DNA from: a bacterium
GTDB taxonomy: Bacteria; Zhuqueibacterota; QNDG01; DSAB01
Direction of reading: 5' to 3'
DNA length: 64,000 nucleotides
Assembly (NCBI GenBank): GCA_016931965.1
Contig: JAFGDT010000041.1
Location: 18,851 to 82,850, forward strand
Within the stretch, counting starts at the first letter, position 1, and each line of letters opens with the position of its first letter. Position numbers and translations under genes: made by a program. Below, one piece after another: positions 36,856 through 55,786 of this stretch. Below the pieces are notes generated by a model. It saw nothing but the letters and a program-made list of their open reading frames with translations. It had not been told where the DNA came from and did no database searches.

Positions 36856-37252
36856 AATCAATCGAATCTTTTTCAAACTTTAAAGATAATAAAACAAACG
36901 ACTCAAAGCAAGAAAAAATTCAAGTTTACAATTCATTTTTATCTTCTTTACTCCCAGCAGCACAGCTACAAGACGACTGCGGGTGGCAACCATTTTCTCG
37001 ATATCGGCAAAATGGTCAGTTACTTTTTCTTTCTCGTTCCAGTGTTCTACGTTGGAACGAGAAGAGTACTCCTCTCCACTCAAGTTGATGGCATGCTTGA
37101 AGCAGTGCAATGATTGCCCTGGATTCCCTTGTCCAGGGCAAATAACTATGGGGCTTCTGACCCATAAGACAATACAGCATCAAGTTTTTGAATTTGGGGA
37201 GGATACCTTGTTGATCGTTCATGGGGGCTTTTTGCCGCTGAACGAATTATTT

Positions 37253-37276
37253 GGAGGGCTGAGCCCTCCCTTTTTT
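37253..37276 (+). terminator. Plus-strand intrinsic terminator with no upstream plus-strand gene, so possibly the end of an ncRNA
   Basis: GGAGGGC-tga-GCCCTCC forms a 6-7-bp GC stem, followed by C and then TTTTTT. Confidence 0.45.
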
Positions 37277-37483
37277 ACGCCTAGGGGTATAGGAGCCTGT
37301 CCAAGAACCCCAAAAAAGCGTTATAATATCATAGATTTTTGAATATATAAAGATTTCATATTAATTGTTACCAAAAATATTCCAATTTTTTCTAGTTCTT
37401 AGACAAGCTCCATAGCCCATTGGCGATCAGAACTTGAGTCTGGTGCAACGCTTATTCGTTTAGGCTTGTTTTATAATATTTTA

Positions 37484-38278
37484 TCATTCTGTGTATTTGA
37501 ATATATAACCTTTATGCGAATTTCGTTTTCCGTGCAAACAACTATTGATATGACTGAAATCTAAATTCAAATACCTAGCACATTGTCTTTGTGTAAGCCA
37601 CTCACCTATATATTTTTCATTTTTAAAAACTAGAAAAGATTTAGCTCCGCGTTGAATTGAATGAATCTTTCTATTTTGGGGGTCAGATAAATACTTACGC
37701 ATTTCTTCTGCTGTTTTCTCTCTTTCAGATTCTTTATTATATCGCATTAACATAAATTTTGAATGTTCTTTTGCTTGTTCAGGATTATCTTGGTGAGCTT
37801 TTTTATTTGCTAAAGATTGCATTCGCCTATTTTCTGGATTTTGGAATAACTTTTTCCTTATTTCGGAATTTCTTTTACACCATTCTTCGTCATACTTAAG
37901 ACCATAAGTTCCTTCCCCACCTAAAGTCAGATTGTAACCATTTGTAAAACTATCATAAAATCGGATATATTTTTTTTCTAGTTCACAGAGTTCTTTCCAT
38001 TCTGTAGCTCTGTCAATTATTTCCCAACTGATATTTTTAGAATCATATTTTCTTATTGCATCGTGAAATGGTGTCCTTGAACCCTTTTTTACACTTCGTA
38101 AATGAATTCGGATTCTTTCTTTTAGCGTTGTTATTGTAATACCAATATAGATTTTTCCACTGGGTGAAGTGGCTTTATATACTATTCCATTAATTGATTT
38201 TTTCTTTTCCATAAATTTACTTACAAGCCTAACGATTATTTCTGCGGCGCGCCAAACCGACGGGTGACCATTATTCAT
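37484..38278 (-). CDS. GIY-YIG homing endonuclease of I-TevI/Seg-like architecture: GIY-YIG domain, NUMOD3-like repeats and a NUMOD1-like HTH
   Basis: GIY-YIG core NGIVYKATSPSGKIYIGITITTLKERIRIH...FHDAIRKY...LEKKYIRFYDS..NGYNLTLGGEG. C-terminal tail CARYLNLDFSHINSCLHGKRNSHKGYIFKY matches the ...NG+RK.A.GY.W.Y DNA-binding motif of homing endonucleases. The start may be the internal ATG at 38212 (MEKKK). Confidence 0.75.
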   Translation of the reverse strand: MNNGHPSVWRAAEIIVRLVSKFMEKKKSINGIVYKATSPSGKIYIGITITTLKERIRIHLRSVKKGSRTPFHDAIRKYDSKNISWEIIDRATEWKELCELEKKYIRFYDSFTNGYNLTLGGEGTYGLKYDEEWCKRNSEIRKKLFQNPENRRMQSLANKKAHQDNPEQAKEHSKFMLMRYNKESEREKTAEEMRKYLSDPQNRKIHSIQRGAKSFLVFKNEKYIGEWLTQRQCARYLNLDFSHINSCLHGKRNSHKGYIFKYTE

Positions 38279-38287
38279 TTTCGTGTG

Positions 38288-38307
38288 GCACTGCTTTTAA
38301 GCAGTGC
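38288..38307. repeat. Perfect 20-bp palindrome GCACTGCTT-TT-AAGCAGTGC, 10 bp upstream of the GIY-YIG start codon
   Basis: Read directly from the sequence. A degenerate copy GCATGCTTGAAGCAGTGC lies at 37091..37108, and a related GCTTTTAAAAGC palindrome at 39759..39770. Confidence 0.6.
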
Positions 38308-38405
38308 TTTAATTATTTGTTCATTCAACACGATATTTTACAAATATCACACTGACCAGGGCACCCTGCGAATTGATGCGGTAGTTATGTAAAGTTATTT
38401 GACTA

Positions 38406-39500
38406 TCAATCAAGCAACTCCTTGAATATTTTATAATCATGATCCGAAAGACTGAATTTGGCATTAAGCTTATTCAGCATTTGGCCCGAGTTGAACCAGG
38501 ATATGAATGTATCGACATTGCCGGCAAACCCTCTTGCACATTTGTCAGATATCGTCTGGTAATCCTGAACTTCTGGGAACAATTTTAAAGTCTGATGAGT
38601 TGCAGATGGGAAATCGAAACCTTGCTTCATGTAATACAAAACACTATAAATATGCCGCAGACGAATTTCTAGATGACTTTCAAATGGAATATTGGCAATT
38701 TTTTCTGACGCTGATAAATTTTCAAATGATTGATGATCAAGTCTTTGTGTTTGATGATGGATTATTCTTCTTCTGGGTGTTCTTTCCGGTTTTTCGACCG
38801 CGCCAATTTGTTGTTTTATTTCTTCTCTCTCTGAAATCTCAATGTGAACTTGCTGCAGTGCCTCAGAGAAAGTCTCGTCATCGGTATCTGGAAATTCATT
38901 TCTCAGGTAACCCACTACTTTCTGTTTTACTTCGAATGAAGTTAATTGTTGAATTAGTGCGATGACTTCCCGTTTTTTGTTAAATTTATCGAGCTTGTTT
39001 TTTAAATATTCATTATACCTATTTTCTTCTATACTACTCTTGTTGAAAATACCTATAAAATTTATGCCTTGCTCTGATCCTTTTTCAAAGTCAATTTTTT
39101 CTAACAATATTGGGTCGGTGTGAGGGTTCAATGGTCCATCATAAAAAATTCTAAGATCTGGTCCAATTAAAAACCCGAAATCGGATTTCATTTGCCTCAT
39201 ATAGGATCTCAGTTGTCCTATTACATAATCACGTTTTATATCCTCTGCAGGCCTCTTGACCTCCACGACAATTAGACATTTCCTATCATTACCATAAATA
39301 ATTAAATCCGGACGAAGCGTGCCCTCACGCCCAAGTTGCACTTTCGGTTGTCTTTCTATCTCATTCTTATATTCCCGCCAACCGAGGACCTCAATGGCTC
39401 TAACCACTTGATTTTCAAAATCCCTTTCAGACAAATTTTGCTTGATATTTTCCGATAACAGAAAACAAATCTCATCCCATTTTTCAGAATTACAATTCAT
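38406..39500 (-). CDS. PD-(D/E)xK nuclease-fold protein with an HsdR-N-like N-terminal domain and an unrecognised C-terminal domain of about 240 aa
   Basis: GTLRPDLIIYGNDRKCLIVVEVKRP matches the D...(E/D)xK motif of the N-terminal domain of type I restriction R subunits (PF13588-like). The rest has no match I recognise. The gene is AT-rich like the adjacent GIY-YIG gene. Confidence 0.6.
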   Translation of the reverse strand: MNCNSEKWDEICFLLSENIKQNLSERDFENQVVRAIEVLGWREYKNEIERQPKVQLGREGTLRPDLIIYGNDRKCLIVVEVKRPAEDIKRDYVIGQLRSYMRQMKSDFGFLIGPDLRIFYDGPLNPHTDPILLEKIDFEKGSEQGINFIGIFNKSSIEENRYNEYLKNKLDKFNKKREVIALIQQLTSFEVKQKVVGYLRNEFPDTDDETFSEALQQVHIEISEREEIKQQIGAVEKPERTPRRRIIHHQTQRLDHQSFENLSASEKIANIPFESHLEIRLRHIYSVLYYMKQGFDFPSATHQTLKLFPEVQDYQTISDKCARGFAGNVDTFISWFNSGQMLNKLNAKFSLSDHDYKIFKELLD

Positions 39501-39672
39501 AATTTGCCTCTGATTCTCTCACATAACACAGGTTTATCCACCCTATATGCATTACATATGCTTTTCAAAATAATCTTTGAATTTGAATACAATCATTTCC
39601 TTCAAATCAAGACACATGGAGCCAACTTGCCCCCTTCATCTATTTCTTTGATAGCCATTTTTCTGTTGAAAT

Positions 39673-39780
39673 GCAGACAAGAATCGGGAATCGATTGAAA
39701 GAATATTTTATTCCGCATGATTTAATACACAAAAATCAGAAAATCAATCAAAACTTCCGCTTTTAAAAGCAGACAAGAAT
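39673..39780. repeat. Two direct copies of GCAGACAAGAAT, 96 bp apart, upstream of the PD-(D/E)xK gene. The second abuts the palindrome GCTTTTAAAAGC at 39759..39770
   Basis: Read from the sequence: 39673..39684 and 39769..39780, with a 12-bp perfect palindrome at 39759..39770. Confidence 0.45.
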
Positions 39781-39970
39781 GCACAATAGTCATTCTCCCT
39801 CTAAAAGCAAAGTCAATGGCTTTAAAAATAACGACTGGAAATGGTTATCTGTATCTTAAGCCCGTTTGATTTTACAAATTGTGAAATTTTTACCTTGACA
39901 TTCGATAAAACCTTTTATATTATGTAATATAAATTCTTTAAATCCATAAAATCAAAAAGAGCCGATTTGA

Positions 39971-40264
39971 ATGAACACCCATCAGAAAGATAAAATGAAA
40001 AGCAGCGATTATCTCTCAGAAGAAGAACAGCAAGAGAGCAAGCAACAACTGTTTTTCTACAATATATGTCTCATTGCGGGCAGTGTCCTTATCCTATTTT
40101 CTCTCATTTATCTTTTACAACATTTAGGCAACAATTCGGTTTACTGGATTGGATTTTTGGGGTTATTCTGTGCAATTCCTTTCTTCATCATATACGGAAT
40201 CGGCATGAAATCGATCAAAAACAAAACGAATTCAAACCCCAAAAACCAGAAACATAAAGCATAG
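39971..40264 (+). CDS. Small membrane protein (97 aa, two transmembrane segments), hypothetical
   Basis: Acidic N-terminal SEEEQQESKQQ stretch, then two hydrophobic helices and a basic C-tail. Confidence 0.45.
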   Translation: MNTHQKDKMKSSDYLSEEEQQESKQQLFFYNICLIAGSVLILFSLIYLLQHLGNNSVYWIGFLGLFCAIPFFIIYGIGMKSIKNKTNSNPKNQKHKA

Positions 40265-40440
40265 CAGCAACCGATTACAGATCATTATCAAGACACACAT
40301 TGTCGACGATACATCCAAGTTTCAATAGACTGTCCTTTTATAACAAGGGTGATGAACCATACAAGGAGAAAAACAAACACCTGGATGGATAATCCATTTT
40401 TTTAAGTAAACACCTGATCTATAATAAAGGGTATAAAACA

Positions 40441-40968
40441 ATGGCATTAGTACCCTGCCGAGAATGTCAGAAAAAAATCAGTGAAAACGCCGTAAGCTGT
40501 CCAGAATGTGGAGCCCCTTTTCCCTCGAGAAGAGAATGGAGGGGGCCAGGATTCGAATGGAAATCCCAAAAAACACTGTTCGGTCATCCGCTGATCCATA
40601 TTGCATTTGGTCGAAATGAAAAAGGAAAATTGAGGGTCGCCAAGGGATTCATTGCCATCGGGCAATTTGCCGTCGGTGCGTTTACAGTCGCCCAATTTGG
40701 CATCGGACTCATTTTCGGTTTGGGTCAATTTATTTTTGGCCTGACGGCAGTGGCTCAGATCGCAATTACCGCACTGTTTGGATGCGGCCAGGTTGCCATC
40801 GGATATGTGGCTGTGGGCCAGCTGGTTTTTGGTTACTACGGATTGGCCCAGGTCGGTATTGCCAAATATCTCTGGTCATTTGGAAGAAAAGATCCCGAAG
40901 CCCTGGACTTTTTCAGCCGATTAGGCGAAAAAATTGGATTGTCCCTGGACCAATACTTCAGAAAATAA
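40441..40968 (+). CDS. Zinc-ribbon protein with a repetitive Gly-rich hydrophobic region of about six 11-residue repeats
   Basis: N-terminal CRECQ...x13...CPECG zinc ribbon. Then IAIGQFAVGAF/TVAQFGIGLIF/GLGQFIFGLTA/VAQIAITALFG/CGQVAIGYVAV/GQLVFGYYGLA with period 11. Confidence 0.6.
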   Translation: MALVPCRECQKKISENAVSCPECGAPFPSRREWRGPGFEWKSQKTLFGHPLIHIAFGRNEKGKLRVAKGFIAIGQFAVGAFTVAQFGIGLIFGLGQFIFGLTAVAQIAITALFGCGQVAIGYVAVGQLVFGYYGLAQVGIAKYLWSFGRKDPEALDFFSRLGEKIGLSLDQYFRK

Positions 40969-50620: not shown

Positions 50621-52249
50621 ATGACAAGAAAAATACTTCTTATAATGGGTTTTATAGGGACAGCCTTCTTTTTACACTGTCCAACCAGTATAAACAGTAT
50701 CGAACAGTGGAATATTTTTGAAACCCAATTTACCAGCTCGAAAAGATATGAGAACCCTGTACAGGATGTGAAAATCGAAGTCACGTTCGTGTCACCCAGT
50801 CAGGATGTACGGACTTTTCTTGCATTCTGGAATGGAGACGATGAATGGCGGGTGCGGTTTAGTCCTGATGAAATCGGAAGGTGGATTTACTTGACATCCT
50901 GTTCTGATAGTTCAAACGGAGGACTGCATCAACAGTCCGGGACTTTTCAATGCGTGGCATATACTGGCGATAATGCTCTATATCAGAACGGTGAACTGCA
51001 GCTTTCTCAAAACAGGCGTTATTTTGTTCATCAAAACGGCAAACCCTTTTTCTTTATGGCGTGCACAGCCTGGTGCGGTCCAGCCCTTGCTGCATACGAT
51101 GATTGGCAGGTTTACCTGCAGGATCGGGTTGATAAAGCATTCACAGCCATTCAGTTTGTGATGACCCAGTGGCGTATGTTTGACAGGGACGCCGATGGCA
51201 ATGAAACCTTTACCGGAATAGAAAAAATAGAAATCAATCCGGCTTACTTCCAGCGGATGGACCGCTATGTGGACGCCATCAATGAAGCCGGTTTGTTAGC
51301 TGTCCCTGTCGTCTTGTGGGCCATAGCCGGAGATACCAATCCCGGATACATCCTGCCCGAAGATCAGAAAATCGTACTGGCTGAGTATATTGTCGCCCGA
51401 TATGGCGCCCACCAGGTCCTCTGGTTTCTTGGGGGTGACGGGAATTATGAAAACGAGCGTGCAGAACCCTGGAAAAAGGTGGGCCGTGCTGTCTTCAAAG
51501 AGGACCAACACAGGCTGGTTTCCATGCACGCGCGGGGGAGAAGCTGGGTTGGTGATGAATTCCGAGGAGAGACCTGGTTTGATTTCATCGTCTACCAGAG
51601 CGGACATGGAGACGATGAGGCTACATTCCGCTGGTTAACCCAGGGACCTCCTGCAACCCAATGGAATGAAGAACCCATGTTGCCGGTGATTAATGCCGAA
51701 CCGAATTATGAAGCGCACAACGGTTACACATACCGGAAAGTGCACAATGACCATGCTGTGCGAAGAGCAGCCTACTGGAGTCTTCTGGCATCCCCGACCG
51801 CAGGTGTGACCTATGGAGGGCAGGGTATCTGGGGATGGCATACAGAAGTACAACTACCGGCGAATCATCCATCAGCAGGACTGGGTTCACCCTGGTATCA
51901 GGCAATCGATCTGCCAGGGGCCTTCAGCATGCAAGAACTGGTCGAGCTGTTTACTTCAATTGACTGGTGGCGTCTGAAACCGGCTCAGAAACTGATTGTC
52001 AGCCAGCCGGGCGAGAAAGATGCTTCAAAATATGTCGCTGCAGCCAAATCGGAGGACGGAACTGCGGCCGTTATCTATATGCCTGAAGGTATGCCGATTC
52101 AAATACGAACCGAATTGCTGAACGTCACCAAAGCCCGATGGTATCATGCCCGGACGGGAGGATGGGTGGATGGAGGAGAAGTGATTCAACCCAGACAGAC
52201 ATTCGAACCGGCTGACCGCAACGACTGGGTACTGGTATTCAGCCGGTGA
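50621..52249 (+). CDS. Secreted putative glycoside hydrolase with a DUF5060 N-domain, a DUF4038 (GH140-like) TIM barrel and a collagen-binding-like C-domain
   Basis: Signal peptide. The DUF5060-like segment is FLAFWNGDDEWRVRFSPDEIGRWIY. GKPFFFMACTAW and VLWFLGGDGNYENE resemble DUF4038. Confidence 0.6.
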   Translation: MTRKILLIMGFIGTAFFLHCPTSINSIEQWNIFETQFTSSKRYENPVQDVKIEVTFVSPSQDVRTFLAFWNGDDEWRVRFSPDEIGRWIYLTSCSDSSNGGLHQQSGTFQCVAYTGDNALYQNGELQLSQNRRYFVHQNGKPFFFMACTAWCGPALAAYDDWQVYLQDRVDKAFTAIQFVMTQWRMFDRDADGNETFTGIEKIEINPAYFQRMDRYVDAINEAGLLAVPVVLWAIAGDTNPGYILPEDQKIVLAEYIVARYGAHQVLWFLGGDGNYENERAEPWKKVGRAVFKEDQHRLVSMHARGRSWVGDEFRGETWFDFIVYQSGHGDDEATFRWLTQGPPATQWNEEPMLPVINAEPNYEAHNGYTYRKVHNDHAVRRAAYWSLLASPTAGVTYGGQGIWGWHTEVQLPANHPSAGLGSPWYQAIDLPGAFSMQELVELFTSIDWWRLKPAQKLIVSQPGEKDASKYVAAAKSEDGTAAVIYMPEGMPIQIRTELLNVTKARWYHARTGGWVDGGEVIQPRQTFEPADRNDWVLVFSR

Positions 52250-52293
52250 TTGACCGGTAACCCTGAAGTCGACACGGATGAAAAACTTGAAGA

Positions 52294-54111
52294 TTGGAAT
52301 ATGAAATGAAACATGGTTTAACAACGGGTTTTTTAATATTGCTTTTCGGAATGGAATGGGCCAACCCCGTCAAAGTAGCAGAGATCAGCGGAGAATTAAA
52401 AACCTGGTATAAAATCACGCTGACATTCACAGGTCCTGAGACAGATGAGCAGGCCAATCCGAATCCATTCCTGGATTACCGTCTGAACGTCACCTTTACA
52501 CGGGAGGACAAATCCTATTTGGTTCCGGGATATTTTGCAGCAGATGGCAATGCCGCCAACAGTTCGGCGGATTCCGGGAATCAATGGCAGGTTCATTTTG
52601 CACCGGACCAGACAGGGATATGGAAATACGAAGTCTCCTTTCGCAGGGGCGAAAATATTGCCGTAAGTGACGATCCGAATGCGGGCCGCAGTGCCGGTTT
52701 TATGGATGGTGAAACCGGTTCTTTTACGGTAGAGCCCACCGACAAAACCGATCGCGATTTCCGGGGCCGGGGTCGTTTGGAATATGTGGGGGAGCATGTT
52801 CTGCGCTTCGCTGAAACAGGGGAATATTTCCTGAAAGCCGGCGCGGATGCCCCGGAGAATTTCCTGGCCTATCAGGATTTTGATGGCGATTTCAAGAACG
52901 ACGGACACCACGACGAACTCGTGAAAACCTGGCAGCCGCATGTCAGGGATTGGCATTCCGGTGATCCTGCCTGGCAGAACGGCAAGGGCAAAGGGATCAT
53001 CGGCGCCATCAACTATCTGGCCTTGCAGGGGATGAATGTCTTTTCCTTTTTGACATTAAACATAGCCGGGGATGACCAGAATGTTTTCCCGTACACGTCG
53101 TACGACGAACGGGTGCGGATGGACATATCCAGACTGGCCCAATGGGAGATTGTCTTTGAGCATGCCGACAGACTGGGCCTGTACCTCCATTTCAAAACCC
53201 AGGAAGCCGAAAATCAGGAACTGCTGGACGGCGGTGCGCTGGGTGTGGAACGCAGGCTCTACTACAGGGAGCTCATCGCCCGATTCAGTCACCATCTGGC
53301 ATTGAACTGGAATCTGGGCGAAGAAAACGGTGCCTGGGGAAATCATGAAGGACAAACGACAGCAGAACGCCGGGCCATGGCGGGATATTTCTGGGAGCAC
53401 GATCCCTATCAGCATCATATCGTGATACACAACGGACAATCCTTTGATGATCTGTTGGGGGACAGATCGGCATTGACCGGGGTTTCCGTACAGACCAACA
53501 GGCCGGATTTTAGCCAGGTACACGATGCCATACTGCACTGGGTAGATGAATCGGAAAAAGCGGGAAAACCATGGGTGGTGGCCATTGATGAACCCGGTGA
53601 TGCACAGCATGCGCTGATTCCGGATCAAGAGGATCCAAACCACGACAATGCCCGTCAAAATGCACTCTGGGGTATGTTTATGTCCGGCGGAGCCGGTGTG
53701 GAGTGGTACTTCGGATATGCCCATCCGGAATCCGATCTCACCTGTCAGGACTGGCGCTCCCGGGCGAATATGTGGGATCAGTGCAGGTATGCACTGGAAT
53801 TTTTCAGGGAGTACAACATCCCGTTTACGGAAATGACCAACGGGGATGAGCTCACAACGGATCAGAACGATTACTGCTTTTATAAGGCCGGTGAGCTGTA
53901 CCTGGTTTACATGAAATCTGCCGGGGATAATCGAATTGACCTGGAAGCTCATAACACGACTTTTCAGGTCTATTGGTTCAATCCCCGCTCGGGAGGAAAG
54001 TTAGAGAGAGGAACCGTCCACTCCATATCCGGACCAGATGCGCAGAATATAGGCAATCCGCCTGAAGCACCTGAACAGGACTGGCTGGTGGTGATTCGCA
54101 GGGAAGAGTAA
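52294..54111 (+). CDS. Secreted putative glycoside hydrolase with a DUF5060 N-domain and a GH-A-clan (cellulase-like) TIM barrel
   Basis: DUF5060-like WQVHFAPDQTGIWKYEVSF. LHFKT...NWNLGEENG resembles a GH5-like acid/base region. Signal peptide present. Confidence 0.55.
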   Translation: MEYEMKHGLTTGFLILLFGMEWANPVKVAEISGELKTWYKITLTFTGPETDEQANPNPFLDYRLNVTFTREDKSYLVPGYFAADGNAANSSADSGNQWQVHFAPDQTGIWKYEVSFRRGENIAVSDDPNAGRSAGFMDGETGSFTVEPTDKTDRDFRGRGRLEYVGEHVLRFAETGEYFLKAGADAPENFLAYQDFDGDFKNDGHHDELVKTWQPHVRDWHSGDPAWQNGKGKGIIGAINYLALQGMNVFSFLTLNIAGDDQNVFPYTSYDERVRMDISRLAQWEIVFEHADRLGLYLHFKTQEAENQELLDGGALGVERRLYYRELIARFSHHLALNWNLGEENGAWGNHEGQTTAERRAMAGYFWEHDPYQHHIVIHNGQSFDDLLGDRSALTGVSVQTNRPDFSQVHDAILHWVDESEKAGKPWVVAIDEPGDAQHALIPDQEDPNHDNARQNALWGMFMSGGAGVEWYFGYAHPESDLTCQDWRSRANMWDQCRYALEFFREYNIPFTEMTNGDELTTDQNDYCFYKAGELYLVYMKSAGDNRIDLEAHNTTFQVYWFNPRSGGKLERGTVHSISGPDAQNIGNPPEAPEQDWLVVIRREE

Positions 54112-54145
54112 AAAGCATCCGTTATGTTTAGATCAAAGGTCAGGA

Positions 54146-55786
54146 ATGATGAAACGTCTACATGTTCTTTTCGTCCTATTGGCATTTTTGATGTGTACTT
54201 TAGACATCCTGTTTGCAGATGAAATTGCAGAAGGTAAATTGTATTCGGTGATCGAACTCGCATTCGAAGGTCCCCTGCAGACCCCGAAGGACACACCGGC
54301 CCGGGACATCGATTTCTGGGTGGAATTTCAGCACGAAAGCGGTTCCCCTGTTCACCGGATATATGGATTCTGGGATGGGGACGGCAGGGGCCATGCAACC
54401 GGTAATGTCTTCAAGGTCCGGTTTTGCCCGACTGAAACGGGAAAATGGATCCTGTCCGAGGTCCATTCCAATGCAGCGTCATTGGACAATCAGCATCAGG
54501 GAGATCACATCACTGTGGGTCAATCGGACCATCCCGGCTTCTGGATGGCGGATCCTGCAAGTACGGGAAAGCGGTGGTATCGGCGTTCGGACGGTTCGCA
54601 TCTCTACATCATCGGAAACACGCACTACAGTTTTCTTTCAGGGTACATGAAAGGCGGAATGCCCTCAGGCAATACAATTGACGGCGATATTCGCGGCAAT
54701 GCCGATTTTTTTAAAAAATTGCGTTTCGGACTCTCAGGCGATTATTACCTCAATCCTGTGGAGAAGCCCTATTTTGATGACGAGGGGCAGCCAACCGATT
54801 GGGGAGACTATGCACACCGTCCCAATCCCCAGTGGTTTCACAATCGGGTTGATCTGGCTGTGCAGACCGCCTATGAGGTGGATTTAATTACCGACATTAT
54901 CCTTGCCGGACCGGACAATGAATGGGCCCGCTCCACATTGCGGGCGAAATACAACGGAGGGGATCCGACGCCTTTTCTGAAATATATCGCCGCCCGCTAT
55001 GGGAGCTATCCCAATGTCTGGATCTGCCTGTGCAACGAGTACGAGATCCGTGAGCCTGTCTACAGCGAAAAAGAAATCGCCGAATTCGGTCGGATCATAC
55101 TTAATTACCTGCCCTATCAAACACCGCTCAGCGTGCACGCCACGCCGAATACACTGTGGGCAGATGCATTTGAAGACCTGCCGCCCTGGAACGACCACAT
55201 CATCATTCAAAAGAAACTTCGCCACCTTTCCCCTGCCGCAGATGTCATCCAGAATGTCTGGGAAAATCAAAACCATCCCTTGTACAAACCGGTGATCAAC
55301 GACGAACTGAGTTATGAGGGTGATGGGGACAGCCACAATGAAGGCGACTCCATTGAATCGCATCTGGGTGCCTTTCTCGGAGGAGGATACGGAACCACCG
55401 GCGAAAAATCCGCCAGCAAAGAAGGCCAGTATTTTAAGGGAAATTTCAATGCCGATGAACATACGGCTGCGGACAACCTGAAATATCTTCGGGAAGTGAT
55501 CGACCAGCACATCACTTTCTGGAAAATGGCTCCAGGCCGGGACATTTTTTCCAATCTGGCCGAGGGATTCCGCGGGATGGCCTGGCCGGGCCATGAATAT
55601 GTCCTGGGAACCAATGAAGCACATCAAGGTCTGACGGCACAATTGCCATCGGGTTCATGGAAGGTGACCCGGTATGATATGATCAACAAGGTCGAAACGA
55701 CATTGTCGGAAAATGCTGTAGGCCGATTTGTGTTTGATTCTCCGGGCAGTCGTGCTGTCTTGTTTCATTTCAAATACAATCAGTGA
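54146..55786 (+). CDS. Secreted putative glycoside hydrolase with DUF5060 and DUF4038-like domains (third paralog)
   Basis: Signal peptide. FKVRFCPTETGKWIL, HLYIIGNTHY and WICLCNEYE, plus a C-terminal beta-sandwich. Confidence 0.55.
   Translation: MMKRLHVLFVLLAFLMCTLDILFADEIAEGKLYSVIELAFEGPLQTPKDTPARDIDFWVEFQHESGSPVHRIYGFWDGDGRGHATGNVFKVRFCPTETGKWILSEVHSNAASLDNQHQGDHITVGQSDHPGFWMADPASTGKRWYRRSDGSHLYIIGNTHYSFLSGYMKGGMPSGNTIDGDIRGNADFFKKLRFGLSGDYYLNPVEKPYFDDEGQPTDWGDYAHRPNPQWFHNRVDLAVQTAYEVDLITDIILAGPDNEWARSTLRAKYNGGDPTPFLKYIAARYGSYPNVWICLCNEYEIREPVYSEKEIAEFGRIILNYLPYQTPLSVHATPNTLWADAFEDLPPWNDHIIIQKKLRHLSPAADVIQNVWENQNHPLYKPVINDELSYEGDGDSHNEGDSIESHLGAFLGGGYGTTGEKSASKEGQYFKGNFNADEHTAADNLKYLREVIDQHITFWKMAPGRDIFSNLAEGFRGMAWPGHEYVLGTNEAHQGLTAQLPSGSWKVTRYDMINKVETTLSENAVGRFVFDSPGSRAVLFHFKYNQ

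What the first reader, a model, noticed from the sequence alone, without database searches (positions are those of the whole stretch)
38406..39500. Stand-alone HsdR-N-like PD-(D/E)xK nuclease fused to an unknown 240-aa C-terminal domain
Residues 60-90 (GTLRPDLIIYGNDRKCLIVVEVKRP) carry the restriction-enzyme-type D...EVK active site. No methyltransferase, specificity subunit or helicase lies nearby, and the remaining two thirds of the protein are novel. The gene is co-oriented with the GIY-YIG gene in the same AT-rich block and is separated from it by a non-coding stretch that carries a 20-bp palindrome. It may act as a nuclease effector coupled to an unknown sensor domain.
Basis: partly seen in the sequence, partly recalled or inferred. 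Interest (0 to 1): 0.65.

Follow-up and report, generated by a model that had tools for sequence, protein, structure and literature searches.

The report
Fossil integron cassette encoding restriction-type nuclease
This gene encodes an intact DNA-cutting enzyme of the restriction-enzyme type that spreads between distant bacteria as an integron gene cassette and is stranded here without its recombination machinery; its tail is a previously unnamed domain also found on other anti-phage restriction proteins.

Summary
ORF 38406-39500 (-) encodes a 364-aa protein with an intact RecB/HsdR-type PD-(D/E)xK site (E37, D65, E80-x-K82, Q96xxxY100), invariant in 43 homologues. No methyltransferase or helicase lies nearby.

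The interpretation needs revision in three ways.
1. The "240-aa unknown domain" is three parts: a helical extension of the nuclease, a disordered linker, and a ~100-aa six-helix domain.
2. That domain has no Pfam or PDB match, but it recurs on McrB-type GTPases and with Mrr_N, HARE-HTH, HEPN and NOV_C modules. On the same nuclease scaffold it is exchanged for RAMA or tandem winged-helix modules. This is the domain syntax of type IV restriction.
3. The family is an integron gene cassette. One locus has intI plus the gene plus a canonical attC, and another is an array of six attC sites. The window keeps the exact 5' cassette junction and half an attC, but has no intI and no foldable attC, so it is a fossil cassette in a ~3-kb AT-rich block missing from this site in the nearest relatives.

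The GIY-YIG neighbour is not a conserved partner.

Most likely function: a single-chain defence nuclease whose tethered C-terminal module selects the target. This is inferred, not shown. I classify it as a new variant of a known kind, of moderate interest.

The parts
38406..39500 (-). Family gene: 364-aa stand-alone PD-(D/E)xK endonuclease, an intact ORF
   Evidence: ORF listing. 112 homologous clusters. dN/dS 0.09-0.12 against six relatives. No paralogue in the window.
39126..39500 (-). Nuclease domain, residues 1-125, RecB/HsdR-N type. Catalytic E37, D65, E80-x-K82 and Q96xxxY100 lie at 39201-39392.
   Evidence: Pfam HSDR_N_2 26 bits against cut-off 25. These residues are invariant in 43 sequences. 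AF2 shows an alpha/beta core with pLDDT mostly 83-95. Best Foldseek hits are the nuclease domains of DrdV, Cas4 SSO0001, BsaXI and the R2 RLE.
38826..39125 (-). Middle region, residues 126-225: one strand plus a helical extension. It is conserved together with the nuclease in all family variants. A role in dimerisation is inferred.
   Evidence: Alignment. AF2 helices 143-216 with pLDDT 82-94. Variants with other C-termini keep about 61-67% of the query, which is this region plus the nuclease. dN/dS 0.08-0.19.
38715..38825 (-). Disordered, variable, low-complexity linker, residues 226-262
   Evidence: pLDDT below 50 for residues 226-261. Variable in length in the alignment. dN/dS 0.3-0.7.
38409..38714 (-). 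C-terminal six-helix domain, residues 263-364. An unnamed, promiscuous module associated with restriction and defence proteins.
   Evidence: AF2 on the domain alone gives pLDDT 94.9. No Pfam or PDB sequence match. No significant Foldseek match in PDB or BFVD. 182 representatives carry it, including McrB-type AAA_5 GTPases and proteins with MrcB_N, Mrr_N, HARE-HTH, HEPN_Swt1, NOV_C or MmeI_N/DUF4357. Median pI about 9.0-9.3 across copies, 6.4 for the window copy.
39501..39527 (-). Cassette 5' end: R' core GTTATGT (39527->39521) followed by a conserved leader with an AGAGG ribosome-binding site
   Evidence: Similarity among the window, L006, L015 and L013 begins exactly at GTT|ATGTGAGA and is absent upstream of it.
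38372..38405 (-). attC remnant: the R''-L'' half, TAGTCAAATAACTTT-ACATAAC-TACCGCATCAAT, with R'' at 38390->38384
   Evidence: Shared with the attC 5' halves of L006, L013 and L001. No complementary 3' half was found: fold z = +1.15 and -0.17, against -2.7 and -4.8 for intact sites. The best candidate partner arm ranks only 881 of 31,984.
38288..38307 (.). 20-nt palindrome GCACTGCTTTTAAGCAGTGC in the spacer. Its role is unresolved.
   Evidence: Hairpin of -8.8 kcal/mol, z = -4.5. It scores as terminator-like only on the + strand. It is not conserved in other family loci.
37484..38278 (-). GIY-YIG homing endonuclease gene, a neighbour and not a partner. The likely true start is the internal ATG at 38212.
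   Evidence: TIGR01453, phrog_314, PADLOC HEase and an I-HmuI NUMOD-like C-terminus. Phage relatives align only from residue 30-33. No homologue lies near other family members.
37281..40400 (.). AT-rich block of about 3.1 kb, absent from the equivalent site in the closest relatives. It holds the GIY-YIG gene, the fossil cassette and about 440 bp of non-coding DNA. The right edge is approximate.
   Evidence: GC profile. Nucleotide similarity to relative L116 (85%) runs from carA to 37069 with a last patch at 37244-37280. Relatives L115 and L116 keep rpmE-DUF1385-prfA-carA-carB but lack both genes.

Best explanation
SHOWN. The gene encodes an intact, selectively maintained RecB/HsdR-type PD-(D/E)xK endonuclease with four parts: a nuclease core, a helical extension, a flexible ~35-aa linker and a ~100-aa six-helix C-terminal domain. 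The family moves between phyla as an integron gene cassette. In the window it is a fossil cassette. The exact 5' recombination junction and the R''/L'' half of its attC survive, but there is no integrase and no foldable attC. It lies in an AT-rich block that is missing from this site in the nearest relatives.

INFERRED. It works as a single-chain, restriction-type anti-phage nuclease. The C-terminal module, tethered by the linker, selects the target. The target is most likely foreign DNA carrying a particular feature such as a base modification, which would be type IV (modification-dependent) logic and would explain the absence of a protective methyltransferase. The PD-(D/E)xK domain, probably after dimerising through the helical extension, then cuts nearby. 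The GIY-YIG gene next door is an unrelated selfish or cassette-like passenger.
For: Nuclease: HSDR_N_2 scores above the Pfam cut-off. E37, D65, E80, K82, Q96 and Y100 are invariant in 43 sequences. The fold matches the nuclease domains of DrdV, BsaXI and Cas4. dN/dS is 0.03-0.09.

Cassette: L014 has a divergent integron integrase (TIGR02249, 442.8 bits against 265) 141 bp from the gene, plus a canonical 60-nt attC with z = -4.8. L006 has six attC sites that separate the gene from its neighbours. L015 has a 127-nt attC after the gene. Similarity between loci starts exactly at the R' core. The protein is 78-81% identical across Balneolaceae, Deferrisomatales and Desulfobacteraceae MAGs. The gene is 35-37% GC in every host.

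Fossil state: no intI in the window. attC-like hairpins in the window are at background level, 4 against 1-4 in shuffles. The remnant does not fold.

Defence and targeting role: the same nuclease-plus-middle scaffold carries RAMA (57-64 bits) or tandem winged-helix modules in place of this domain. PD-(D/E)XK-wH fusions are experimentally shown m6A-dependent type IV enzymes, and RAMA is a predicted m6A reader with the same fusion partners (PMC11037411, PMC4738411). The C-terminal domain also sits at the N-terminus of McrB-type AAA_5 GTPases; in P0131 it is the only matched domain ahead of the AAA_5 module. It also occurs with Mrr_N, HARE-HTH, HEPN and NOV_C. The domain is basic in most copies, median pI about 9.0-9.3. 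Family members lie in defence islands with type I and type III R-M, Gabija-like genes, PDC-S06 and caspase-like genes. Integron cassettes are known to carry single-gene defence nucleases and to occur outside integrons with pseudo-attC sites (bioRxiv 10.1101/2024.07.02.601719).
Against: No activity, target or phenotype has been tested. The C-terminal domain has no detectable relative of known function. Foldseek gives only faint HTH-like hits, such as DnaA domain IV at TM 0.40 and E 5.7. The window copy of the domain is near neutral, pI 6.4. The window copy has no recognisable strong promoter, and two terminator-like hairpins lie upstream of it on its own strand, so expression is unknown. In two lineages the gene is followed by a conserved PDC-S06 ATPase, which raises the possibility that the nuclease does not always act alone. 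The Pfam hit is only 1 bit above the cut-off.
Confidence: 0.55

Rival explanations
1. Abortive-infection or toxin-type effector. The C-terminal domain is a sensor for a phage protein or a small-molecule cue rather than a DNA reader. It holds the nuclease inactive until infection, after which the nuclease degrades DNA indiscriminately.
For: The domain co-occurs with genuine DNA-reader domains in the same polypeptide (P0153 MrcB_N, P0129 Mrr_N, P0158 HARE-HTH), so it may add a different function. It is also fused to a HEPN RNase (P0120), a typical abortive-infection effector. The window copy of the domain is not basic. It has no structural match to known DNA-binding folds.
Against: On the same scaffold it is replaced by RAMA and winged-helix modules, which are DNA-binding or DNA-reading (PMC11037411). 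In P0131 it is the only matched domain ahead of the McrB-type AAA_5 module, the position held by the DNA-binding domain in McrB homologues (McrB layout from established knowledge). Most copies are basic.
Confidence: 0.2
2. A subunit of a two-gene system with the PDC-S06 (PrrC/RloC-like AAA_13) ATPase. On this reading the window copy is an orphan that has lost its partner and may be inert or differently regulated.
For: AAA_13 proteins directly downstream of two divergent family members (L001 with the window-type C-terminus, L134/L135 with tandem wH) are 63% identical over their full length. Both match PADLOC PDC-S06 at 940-950 bits and include a PrrC-like segment.
Against: The pairing is seen in only 2 of about 22 independent loci. 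In L001 an attC remnant separates the two genes. Most members, including those in true integron arrays, are single-gene cassettes. PADLOC treats PDC-S06 as a single-gene candidate. Purifying selection on the solitary window copy is strong.
Confidence: 0.1
3. A selfish nuclease, either homing-type or addiction-type, that promotes its own maintenance or spread, possibly together with the GIY-YIG endonuclease, and has no role in defence.
For: It is adjacent to a homing endonuclease gene. Its distribution is patchy and horizontally transferred. Modular DNA-binding tails are also typical of homing enzymes.
Against: Mobility is already explained by integron recombination. There is no intron or intein context and no conserved target-gene context. 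The GIY-YIG gene is not a conserved neighbour. The family was not found on viral contigs.
Confidence: 0.05
4. A silent relic or a housekeeping repair nuclease: the window copy is not expressed or has no specific role.
For: It has no integron Pc promoter, no convincing sigma-70 promoter close by, and terminator-like hairpins upstream. The attC is decayed. Copies in L013 and L017 are broken into two ORFs.
Against: The window ORF is intact with every catalytic residue. dN/dS against the closest relative is 0.12 at dS 0.53, so constraint persisted along the lineage. The patchy cross-phylum distribution argues against a housekeeping role.
Confidence: 0.1

Closest known systems
PD-(D/E)XK-winged-helix modification-dependent (type IV) endonucleases, such as DpnI, FcyTI and Psp4BI (PMC11037411)
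   Same: A single chain with an N-terminal PD-(D/E)xK nuclease and a C-terminal DNA-reading module, and no cognate methyltransferase. Sister variants of this family carry tandem winged-helix domains in exactly that position.
   Different: The window protein has an unrelated all-helical C-terminal domain with no match to wH models. Its nuclease is of the HsdR-N/RecB type with a QxxxY motif and a helical extension. Modification dependence has not been tested.
N-terminal endonuclease domain of type I restriction HsdR subunits (Pfam HSDR_N / HSDR_N_2)
   Same: The same nuclease class and motif layout, D...E-x-K...QxxxY. The QxxxY motif of HsdR and RecB nucleases is from established knowledge.
   Different: There is no SF2 translocase motor, no HsdM or HsdS partner and no C-terminal HsdR domains.
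Mrr-family type IV restriction enzymes (Mrr_N winged helix plus Mrr_cat)
   Same: A stand-alone PD-(D/E)xK nuclease with a separate DNA-binding domain and no methyltransferase. The C-terminal domain of this protein is found fused to Mrr_N in P0129.
   Different: The domain order is reversed. Mrr_cat scores 13.5 bits against a cut-off of 21, and there is no Mrr_N in the window protein.
Bacteriophage-resistance integron cassettes (BRiCs), such as Brc142, a putative dimeric restriction endonuclease (bioRxiv 10.1101/2024.07.02.601719)
   Same: A single-gene, promoter-less defence-type cassette bounded by attC. Homologues occur outside integrons lacking attC or keeping only a pseudo-attC, as in the window.
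   Different: BRiCs were described from mobile integrons of clinical Gammaproteobacteria. This family is in chromosomal integrons and attC arrays of sediment lineages. No sequence relationship to any BRiC was tested, and no phage phenotype is known.
McrBC type IV restriction (McrB AAA+ GTPase with a variable N-terminal DNA-reader domain)
   Same: The window protein's C-terminal domain occurs at the N-terminus of several McrB-type AAA_5 proteins (P0127, P0131, P0138, P0147, P0153, P0210).
   Different: The window protein has no AAA+ module and no McrC partner. Only the accessory domain is shared.
PADLOC candidate PDC-S02 (YhcG-like PD-(D/E)xK single-gene candidate)
   Same: A weak match over the nuclease core only (E 2.8e-5, residues 19-106).
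   Different: The match covers less than a third of the protein and lies in a different part of the PDC-S02 profiles. The rest is not shared.

Membership tests
PD-(D/E)xK nuclease superfamily, HSDR_N_2 (PF13588) type | Catalytic D...(D/E)-x-K triad with an upstream acidic residue, conserved in homologues | tested here: met
   E37, P64-D65 and E80-V-K82 are invariant in 43 sequences and present in the window protein.
PD-(D/E)xK nuclease superfamily, HSDR_N_2 (PF13588) type | Profile score at or above the Pfam gathering cut-off | tested here: met
   26.0 bits against 25 for the window protein, a margin of only 1 bit. Relatives score 24.5-30.9 bits, and some also hit HSDR_N.
PD-(D/E)xK nuclease superfamily, HSDR_N_2 (PF13588) type | Restriction-endonuclease-like alpha/beta fold | tested here: met
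   The AF2 model has the core strands and helices at pLDDT 83-95. The best Foldseek matches are PD-(D/E)xK domains of DrdV, Cas4 and BsaXI, though with weak E-values of 7e-4 to 2e-2.
Type I restriction enzyme HsdR subunit | SF2 helicase/translocase motor fused to the nuclease | tested here: not met
   The protein is 364 aa with no helicase domain.
Type I restriction enzyme HsdR subunit | Adjacent hsdM and hsdS genes | tested here: not met
   None within about 5 kb in the window. No such gene is a conserved neighbour across 18 loci.
Mrr-type type IV restriction enzyme | Mrr_cat catalytic domain and an Mrr_N winged helix | tested here: not met
   Mrr_cat scores 13.5 bits against a cut-off of 21. 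There is no Mrr_N hit.
Type IV (modification-dependent) restriction enzyme, in the general sense | A nuclease fused to a separate target-recognition module, with no cognate methyltransferase | tested here: inconclusive
   The architecture and the lack of a methyltransferase fit. Sister variants carry RAMA or wH modules. The role of the window's C-terminal domain is not established.
Type IV (modification-dependent) restriction enzyme, in the general sense | Cleavage depends on modified DNA | not testable with these tools
   This needs in vitro cleavage assays or in vivo toxicity in hosts with and without modification.
Integron gene cassette (the family as a whole) | An attC site (R''-L''...L'-R', an imperfect hairpin) directly downstream of a promoter-less ORF | tested here: met
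   L014 has a 60-nt site (z = -4.8), L006 a 75-nt site (z = -2.7) and L015 a 127-nt site.
Integron gene cassette (the family as a whole) | Association with an integron integrase and/or an array of attC sites | tested here: met
   The L014 intI matches TIGR02249 at 442.8 bits against 265, and is divergent and 141 bp away. L006 has six attC sites in a row.
Integron gene cassette (the window copy) | Cassette boundary at the R' core (G|TTRRRY) | tested here: met
   GTTATGT at 39527->39521. Similarity to other cassettes begins exactly there.
Integron gene cassette (the window copy) | An intact, foldable attC and an integrase or attC array nearby | tested here: not met
   The remnant folds no better than shuffles. 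The long-attC alternative is not significant. There is no intI in 64 kb. attC-like hairpins are at background level.
PADLOC PDC-S02 candidate defence gene | A full-length match to a PDC-S02 profile | tested here: not met
   The best hit is E 2.8e-5, covering residues 19-106 against profile positions 115-200 of 269.
McrBC system | An AAA_5 GTPase (McrB) and a McrC nuclease | tested here: not met
   Neither is in the protein or the window. Only the accessory domain is shared with McrB homologues elsewhere.

The most novel reading that the evidence does not exclude
The ~100-aa six-helix C-terminal domain is a new class of target-recognition (reader) module for restriction-type defence. It would be interchangeable with the RAMA and winged-helix adenine-methylation readers on one nuclease scaffold, and would also be used by McrB GTPases, HEPN and NOV_C effectors. 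The family would then be a new, integron-borne family of modification-dependent endonucleases with a new specificity.
Probability: 0.3. Interest if true: 0.6.

Novelty: new variant of a known kind. Interest (0 to 1): 0.45.

Why it matters
If the inference holds, this adds an uncharacterised single-chain restriction-type nuclease family and, more usefully, an unnamed accessory domain. That domain has no Pfam model and no detected structural relative, and it recurs on type IV restriction machinery (McrB, Mrr_N, HARE-HTH) and on HEPN and NOV_C nucleases. Working out what the domain recognises could reveal a new nucleic-acid or modification reader.

The finding also extends the recent observation that integrons stockpile phage-defence genes. 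Here the integrons are chromosomal ones of sediment lineages (Desulfobacterota, Balneolaceae and others). The window provides a clean example of a cassette stranded outside an integron with a pseudo-attC.

For the scan itself the lesson is practical. An AT-rich solitary gene with a precise GTTRRRY junction upstream and an RYYYAAC box downstream should be read as a cassette. Its neighbours should not be assumed to be functional partners.

Tried and rejected
1. GIY-YIG partnership. tblastn with the window GIY-YIG protein found no homologue in any family locus. All-against-all comparison of neighbours found no shared partner. Rejected.
2. Empty-site comparison through the flanking trehalose-P synthase gene. 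None of 80 metagenome loci kept rpmE/prfA nearby, so this was uninformative. It was replaced by PrfA relatives, which fixed only the left edge of the block.
3. Covariance model for attC. MAFFT misaligned the R'' ends because the loop lengths vary. I abandoned it for a constrained-folding scan calibrated on L006.
4. First attC scan. The thresholds were too strict and it confused strands. Superseded.
5. A long (142-164 nt) attC in the window with the palindrome as its terminal stem. z = -2.6 and -1.4, but the signal came from the palindrome alone; with the palindrome removed z = +0.35. The candidate 3' arm ranks 881 of 31,984. Not supported.
6. The palindrome as the terminator of the nuclease gene. 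There is no T-run on the gene's own strand; it scores as terminator-like only on the opposite strand. Unresolved.
8. Sequence profiles of the whole family and of the C-terminal domain against PDB gave nothing.
9. Viral origin. No family member was found on IMG/VR contigs.
10. Known RNA families in the non-coding parts of the block: none credible. No tRNA insertion site.
Full report
OBSERVATION. The quoted peptide is residues 60-84. Pfam HSDR_N_2 matches residues 46-109 at 26.0 bits against a gathering cut-off of 25. YhcG_C and Mrr_cat fall below their cut-offs. Residues 126-364 match nothing in Pfam, NCBIfam, PADLOC or PHROGs. No solved structure is detectable by sequence, either with the single protein or with a family profile. 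The co-oriented downstream gene (37484..38278) is a GIY-YIG homing endonuclease with an I-HmuI NUMOD-like tail. The 20-nt palindrome GCACTGCTTTTAAGCAGTGC is at 38288-38307 and forms a stable hairpin of -8.8 kcal/mol, z = -4.5. The block from about 37.3 to 40.4 kb has GC 0.29-0.39 against about 0.44 elsewhere. The flanking genes are carA, prfA, DUF1385 and rpmE on one side. On the other are a small membrane protein, a zinc-ribbon protein, a trehalose-6-P synthase/phosphatase fusion and a zinc peptidase. No methyltransferase, specificity subunit or helicase is nearby.

THE PROTEIN. A database search found 112 homologous clusters, mostly from Desulfobacterota metagenomes and MAGs. In a 43-sequence alignment E37, P64-D65, E80-x-K82 and Q96-x-x-x-Y100 are invariant. 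This is the PD-(D/E)xK triad plus the QxxxY motif typical of RecB and HsdR nucleases; the significance of that motif is from established knowledge. AlphaFold2 on this alignment (mean pLDDT 81.5) gives three parts: an alpha/beta nuclease core continued by a helical extension (residues 1-216), a disordered segment (226-261, pLDDT below 50), and a separate helical bundle (264-363). The full model's best PDB matches are the nuclease domains of DrdV, Cas4 SSO0001, BsaXI and the R2 restriction-like endonuclease. All are weak (E 7e-4 or worse) and generic for the fold. Pairwise dN/dS against six relatives is 0.09-0.12. By region it is 0.03-0.09 for the nuclease, 0.08-0.19 for the middle, 0.3-0.7 for the linker and 0.06-0.08 for the C-terminal domain. 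So both folded parts are constrained, and the window copy is intact.

An exhaustive profile search found 182 cluster representatives carrying the domain, 95 of them at E <= 1e-10. Sampled architectures place it in several settings:
- at the N-terminus of McrB-type AAA_5 GTPases (P0127, P0131, P0138, P0147, P0210);
- ahead of MrcB_N plus AAA_5 (P0153);
- with Mrr_N (P0129), HARE-HTH (P0158), HEPN_Swt1 (P0120), the NOV_C nuclease (P0128), MmeI_N/DUF4357 (P0222) and a cold-shock/zinc-finger protein (P0130).
Most copies are basic (median pI about 9.0-9.3), although the window copy has pI 6.4.

This partner list is the one described for RAMA and HARE-HTH, which are predicted readers of modified DNA fused to restriction nucleases and McrB-like AAA+ proteins (PMC4738411). 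PD-(D/E)XK-wH fusions have been shown experimentally to be m6A-dependent type IV enzymes (PMC11037411). The domain is therefore an unnamed module associated with restriction and defence. Whether it reads DNA itself is not settled, because in P0153, P0129 and P0158 it sits beside an established reader.

GENOMIC CONTEXT: AN INTEGRON CASSETTE. The gene's neighbours differ in almost every locus. They include type III R-M and an AAA_13 ATPase in Desulfatitalea, IS21 in one Syntrophobacteraceae contig, RelA/SpoT and Gabija-like genes in L006, an integrase/SSB element with a caspase-like gene in L011, and type I R-M in L012. All-against-all comparison of neighbours in 18 loci found nothing shared apart from three contigs of one lineage. 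The window's GIY-YIG protein has no homologue near any other member. The protein is 78-81% identical in MAGs of different phyla: Balneolaceae, Deferrisomatales and Desulfobacteraceae. The gene is 35-37% GC in every host.

Reading the flanks explained this pattern. Downstream of the stop codon, several loci have ...ACATAAC followed by an imperfect inverted repeat ending in GTTAGnn or GTTATnn. About 27 nt upstream of the ATG, several loci share GTTATGTGAGA. Folding confirmed canonical attC hairpins after the gene in L014 (60 nt, z = -4.8), L006 (75 nt, z = -2.7) and L015 (127 nt). L014 carries a divergent integron integrase 141 bp upstream (TIGR02249, 442.8 bits against a cut-off of 265), so there the gene is the first cassette of a complete integron. 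A constrained-folding scan found six short attC sites in L006, each in an intergenic spacer. They separate 316-aa, RelA/SpoT, 107-aa, 158-aa, family and T5orf172 cassettes. The T5orf172 (GIY-YIG-clan) neighbour there is therefore an independent cassette and not a partner. Other loci (L004, L011, L012, L018, L022, L132) show no attC. That matches published observations that defence cassettes also occur outside integrons, sometimes with pseudo-attC sites (bioRxiv 10.1101/2024.07.02.601719).

THE WINDOW COPY IS A FOSSIL CASSETTE. Alignment of the flanks shows that similarity to the other cassettes begins exactly at the R' core GTT|ATGTGAGA (window 39527->39521, minus strand), with unrelated sequence beyond it. 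At the 3' end the window shares TAGTCAAATAA-TT-ACATAAC-nACCGCATCAA with L006, L013 and L001 (R'' at 38390->38384) and then diverges. The remaining candidate attC does not fold better than shuffles (z = +1.15 and -0.17). A longer 142-164-nt version owes its score to the palindrome alone, and its putative 3' arm ranks 881 of 31,984. The window has no intI, and attC-like hairpins are at background level, 4 against 1-4 in shuffles.

The host is an uncultured bacterium. A 100% identical PrfA lies on an NCBI contig labelled only 'bacterium', and the named relatives, at about 69%, are candidate division KSB1. The two closest relatives keep rpmE-DUF1385-prfA-carA-carB but lack both the GIY-YIG gene and the family gene. 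Nucleotide similarity to L116 ends at 37069 with a last patch at 37244-37280, a conserved terminator hairpin. The left edge of the block is therefore at about 37281-37300. The right edge could not be fixed because the relatives are rearranged there, and the trehalose-P synthase route gave no synteny.

MECHANISM (INFERRED). The anatomy is a catalytically intact PD-(D/E)xK nuclease, a helical extension that could mediate dimerisation, a flexible tether, and a small swappable C-terminal module. This resembles single-chain restriction enzymes in which a recognition domain positions a nuclease. No methyltransferase accompanies the gene in the loci examined, including the solitary RAMA variant set among housekeeping genes. 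The alternative modules are readers, or predicted readers, of methylated adenine. For these reasons type IV (modification-dependent) logic is the most economical explanation. My confidence in each step is:
- nuclease with an intact active site: about 0.9;
- integron-cassette origin with fossil status in the window: about 0.9;
- a defence role: about 0.6;
- modification dependence: about 0.3.

A second rival comes from an observation made late in the work. In two divergent members (L001, L134/L135) the gene is followed by orthologous AAA_13 ATPases that are 63% identical to each other and match PADLOC candidate PDC-S06 over their full length (940-950 bits). This pairing occurs in only 2 of about 22 independent loci and is absent from the window.

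COMPARISON AND NOVELTY. The protein works like a PD-(D/E)XK-reader fusion of the DpnI, FcyTI or Mrr kind, and it travels like a BRiC. It fails the membership tests for HsdR (no motor, no HsdM/S), Mrr (below cut-off, no Mrr_N), McrBC and PDC-S02. NCBI labels relatives only as 'type I restriction enzyme HsdR N-terminal domain-containing protein' or 'hypothetical'. I found no paper describing the family.

Three things are new here: the C-terminal domain as a recognisable promiscuous module, the modular C-terminal swapping on this scaffold, and the family's cassette lifestyle. The general kinds, namely single-chain restriction-type nucleases and defence genes carried in integrons, are already known. 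I therefore classify it as a new variant of a known kind, with moderate interest (0.45).

Noticed in passing
L001:11226-13427 and L134:9198-11417 (also L002, L135): A 733/739-aa AAA_13 ATPase lies directly downstream of two divergent family members, one with the window-type C-terminus and one with the tandem-wH C-terminus. The two ATPases are 63% identical and match PADLOC candidate PDC-S06 over their full length (940-950 bits), with a PrrC-like segment. This may be a two-gene variant of the system. It is absent from the window.
   Followed up: partly
window 38210-38278 and 38227-38233: Phage relatives of the GIY-YIG protein align only from residue 30-33, so the true start is probably the internal ATG at 38212 (MEKKKSINGIVYK...). 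A canonical R'-like GTTAGGC (sense strand) lies 14 nt upstream of that ATG. This hints that the GIY-YIG gene may also once have been a cassette. No attC could be demonstrated.
   Followed up: partly
L013:10001-11095 and L017:4281-5374: The family gene is split into two ORFs (134+216 aa and 92+264 aa) in these two loci. They appear to be pseudogenised copies, which would fit a costly nuclease.
   Followed up: no
window 37253-37279 (+): A strong terminator-like hairpin, GGAGGGCTGAGCCCTCC followed by a T-run, is conserved at 89% in relative L116. It marks the last conserved sequence before the AT-rich block. The mechanical 119-aa ORF 36983-37342 runs through it and is probably not a gene.
   Followed up: partly
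window 39666-39684 and 39762-39780: A direct repeat (TTGAAATGCAGACAAGAAT / TTTAAAAGCAGACAAGAAT, 96 bp apart) lies in the 440-bp non-coding stretch upstream of the cassette junction. Two terminator-like hairpins on the gene's own strand (39773-39756, 39633-39618) lie in the same stretch. Their function is unknown.
   Followed up: no
window 40441-40968 (+): The 175-aa protein has an N-terminal zinc ribbon. Its C-terminal part is built from 15-nt periodic repeats (5 copies at 40652-40817) that encode glycine-rich hydrophobic repeats of the GQFAVG type.
   Followed up: no
L006:1737-12252: The integron-like array carrying the 88%-identical family member also has a RelA/SpoT-domain cassette. It is followed by a Gabija-like pair, an OLD-TOPRIM ATPase plus a UvrD helicase. 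The whole array looks like a defence stockpile.
   Followed up: no
L014:9860-10000: The putative attI region between intI and the first cassette contains two copies of AAGGCAAATTTGCC, which are candidate integrase-binding repeats.
   Followed up: no
window 51000-55000: This stretch has higher GC (0.51-0.525) than the rest of the window (about 0.44). It has no Rfam match, so it is not an rRNA operon. Not examined further.
   Followed up: no
P0074/P0076, P0082, P0098, P0100, P0108 (family variants): At least five further C-terminal tails on the same nuclease scaffold match no Pfam family. They may be additional unknown recognition modules.
   Followed up: no
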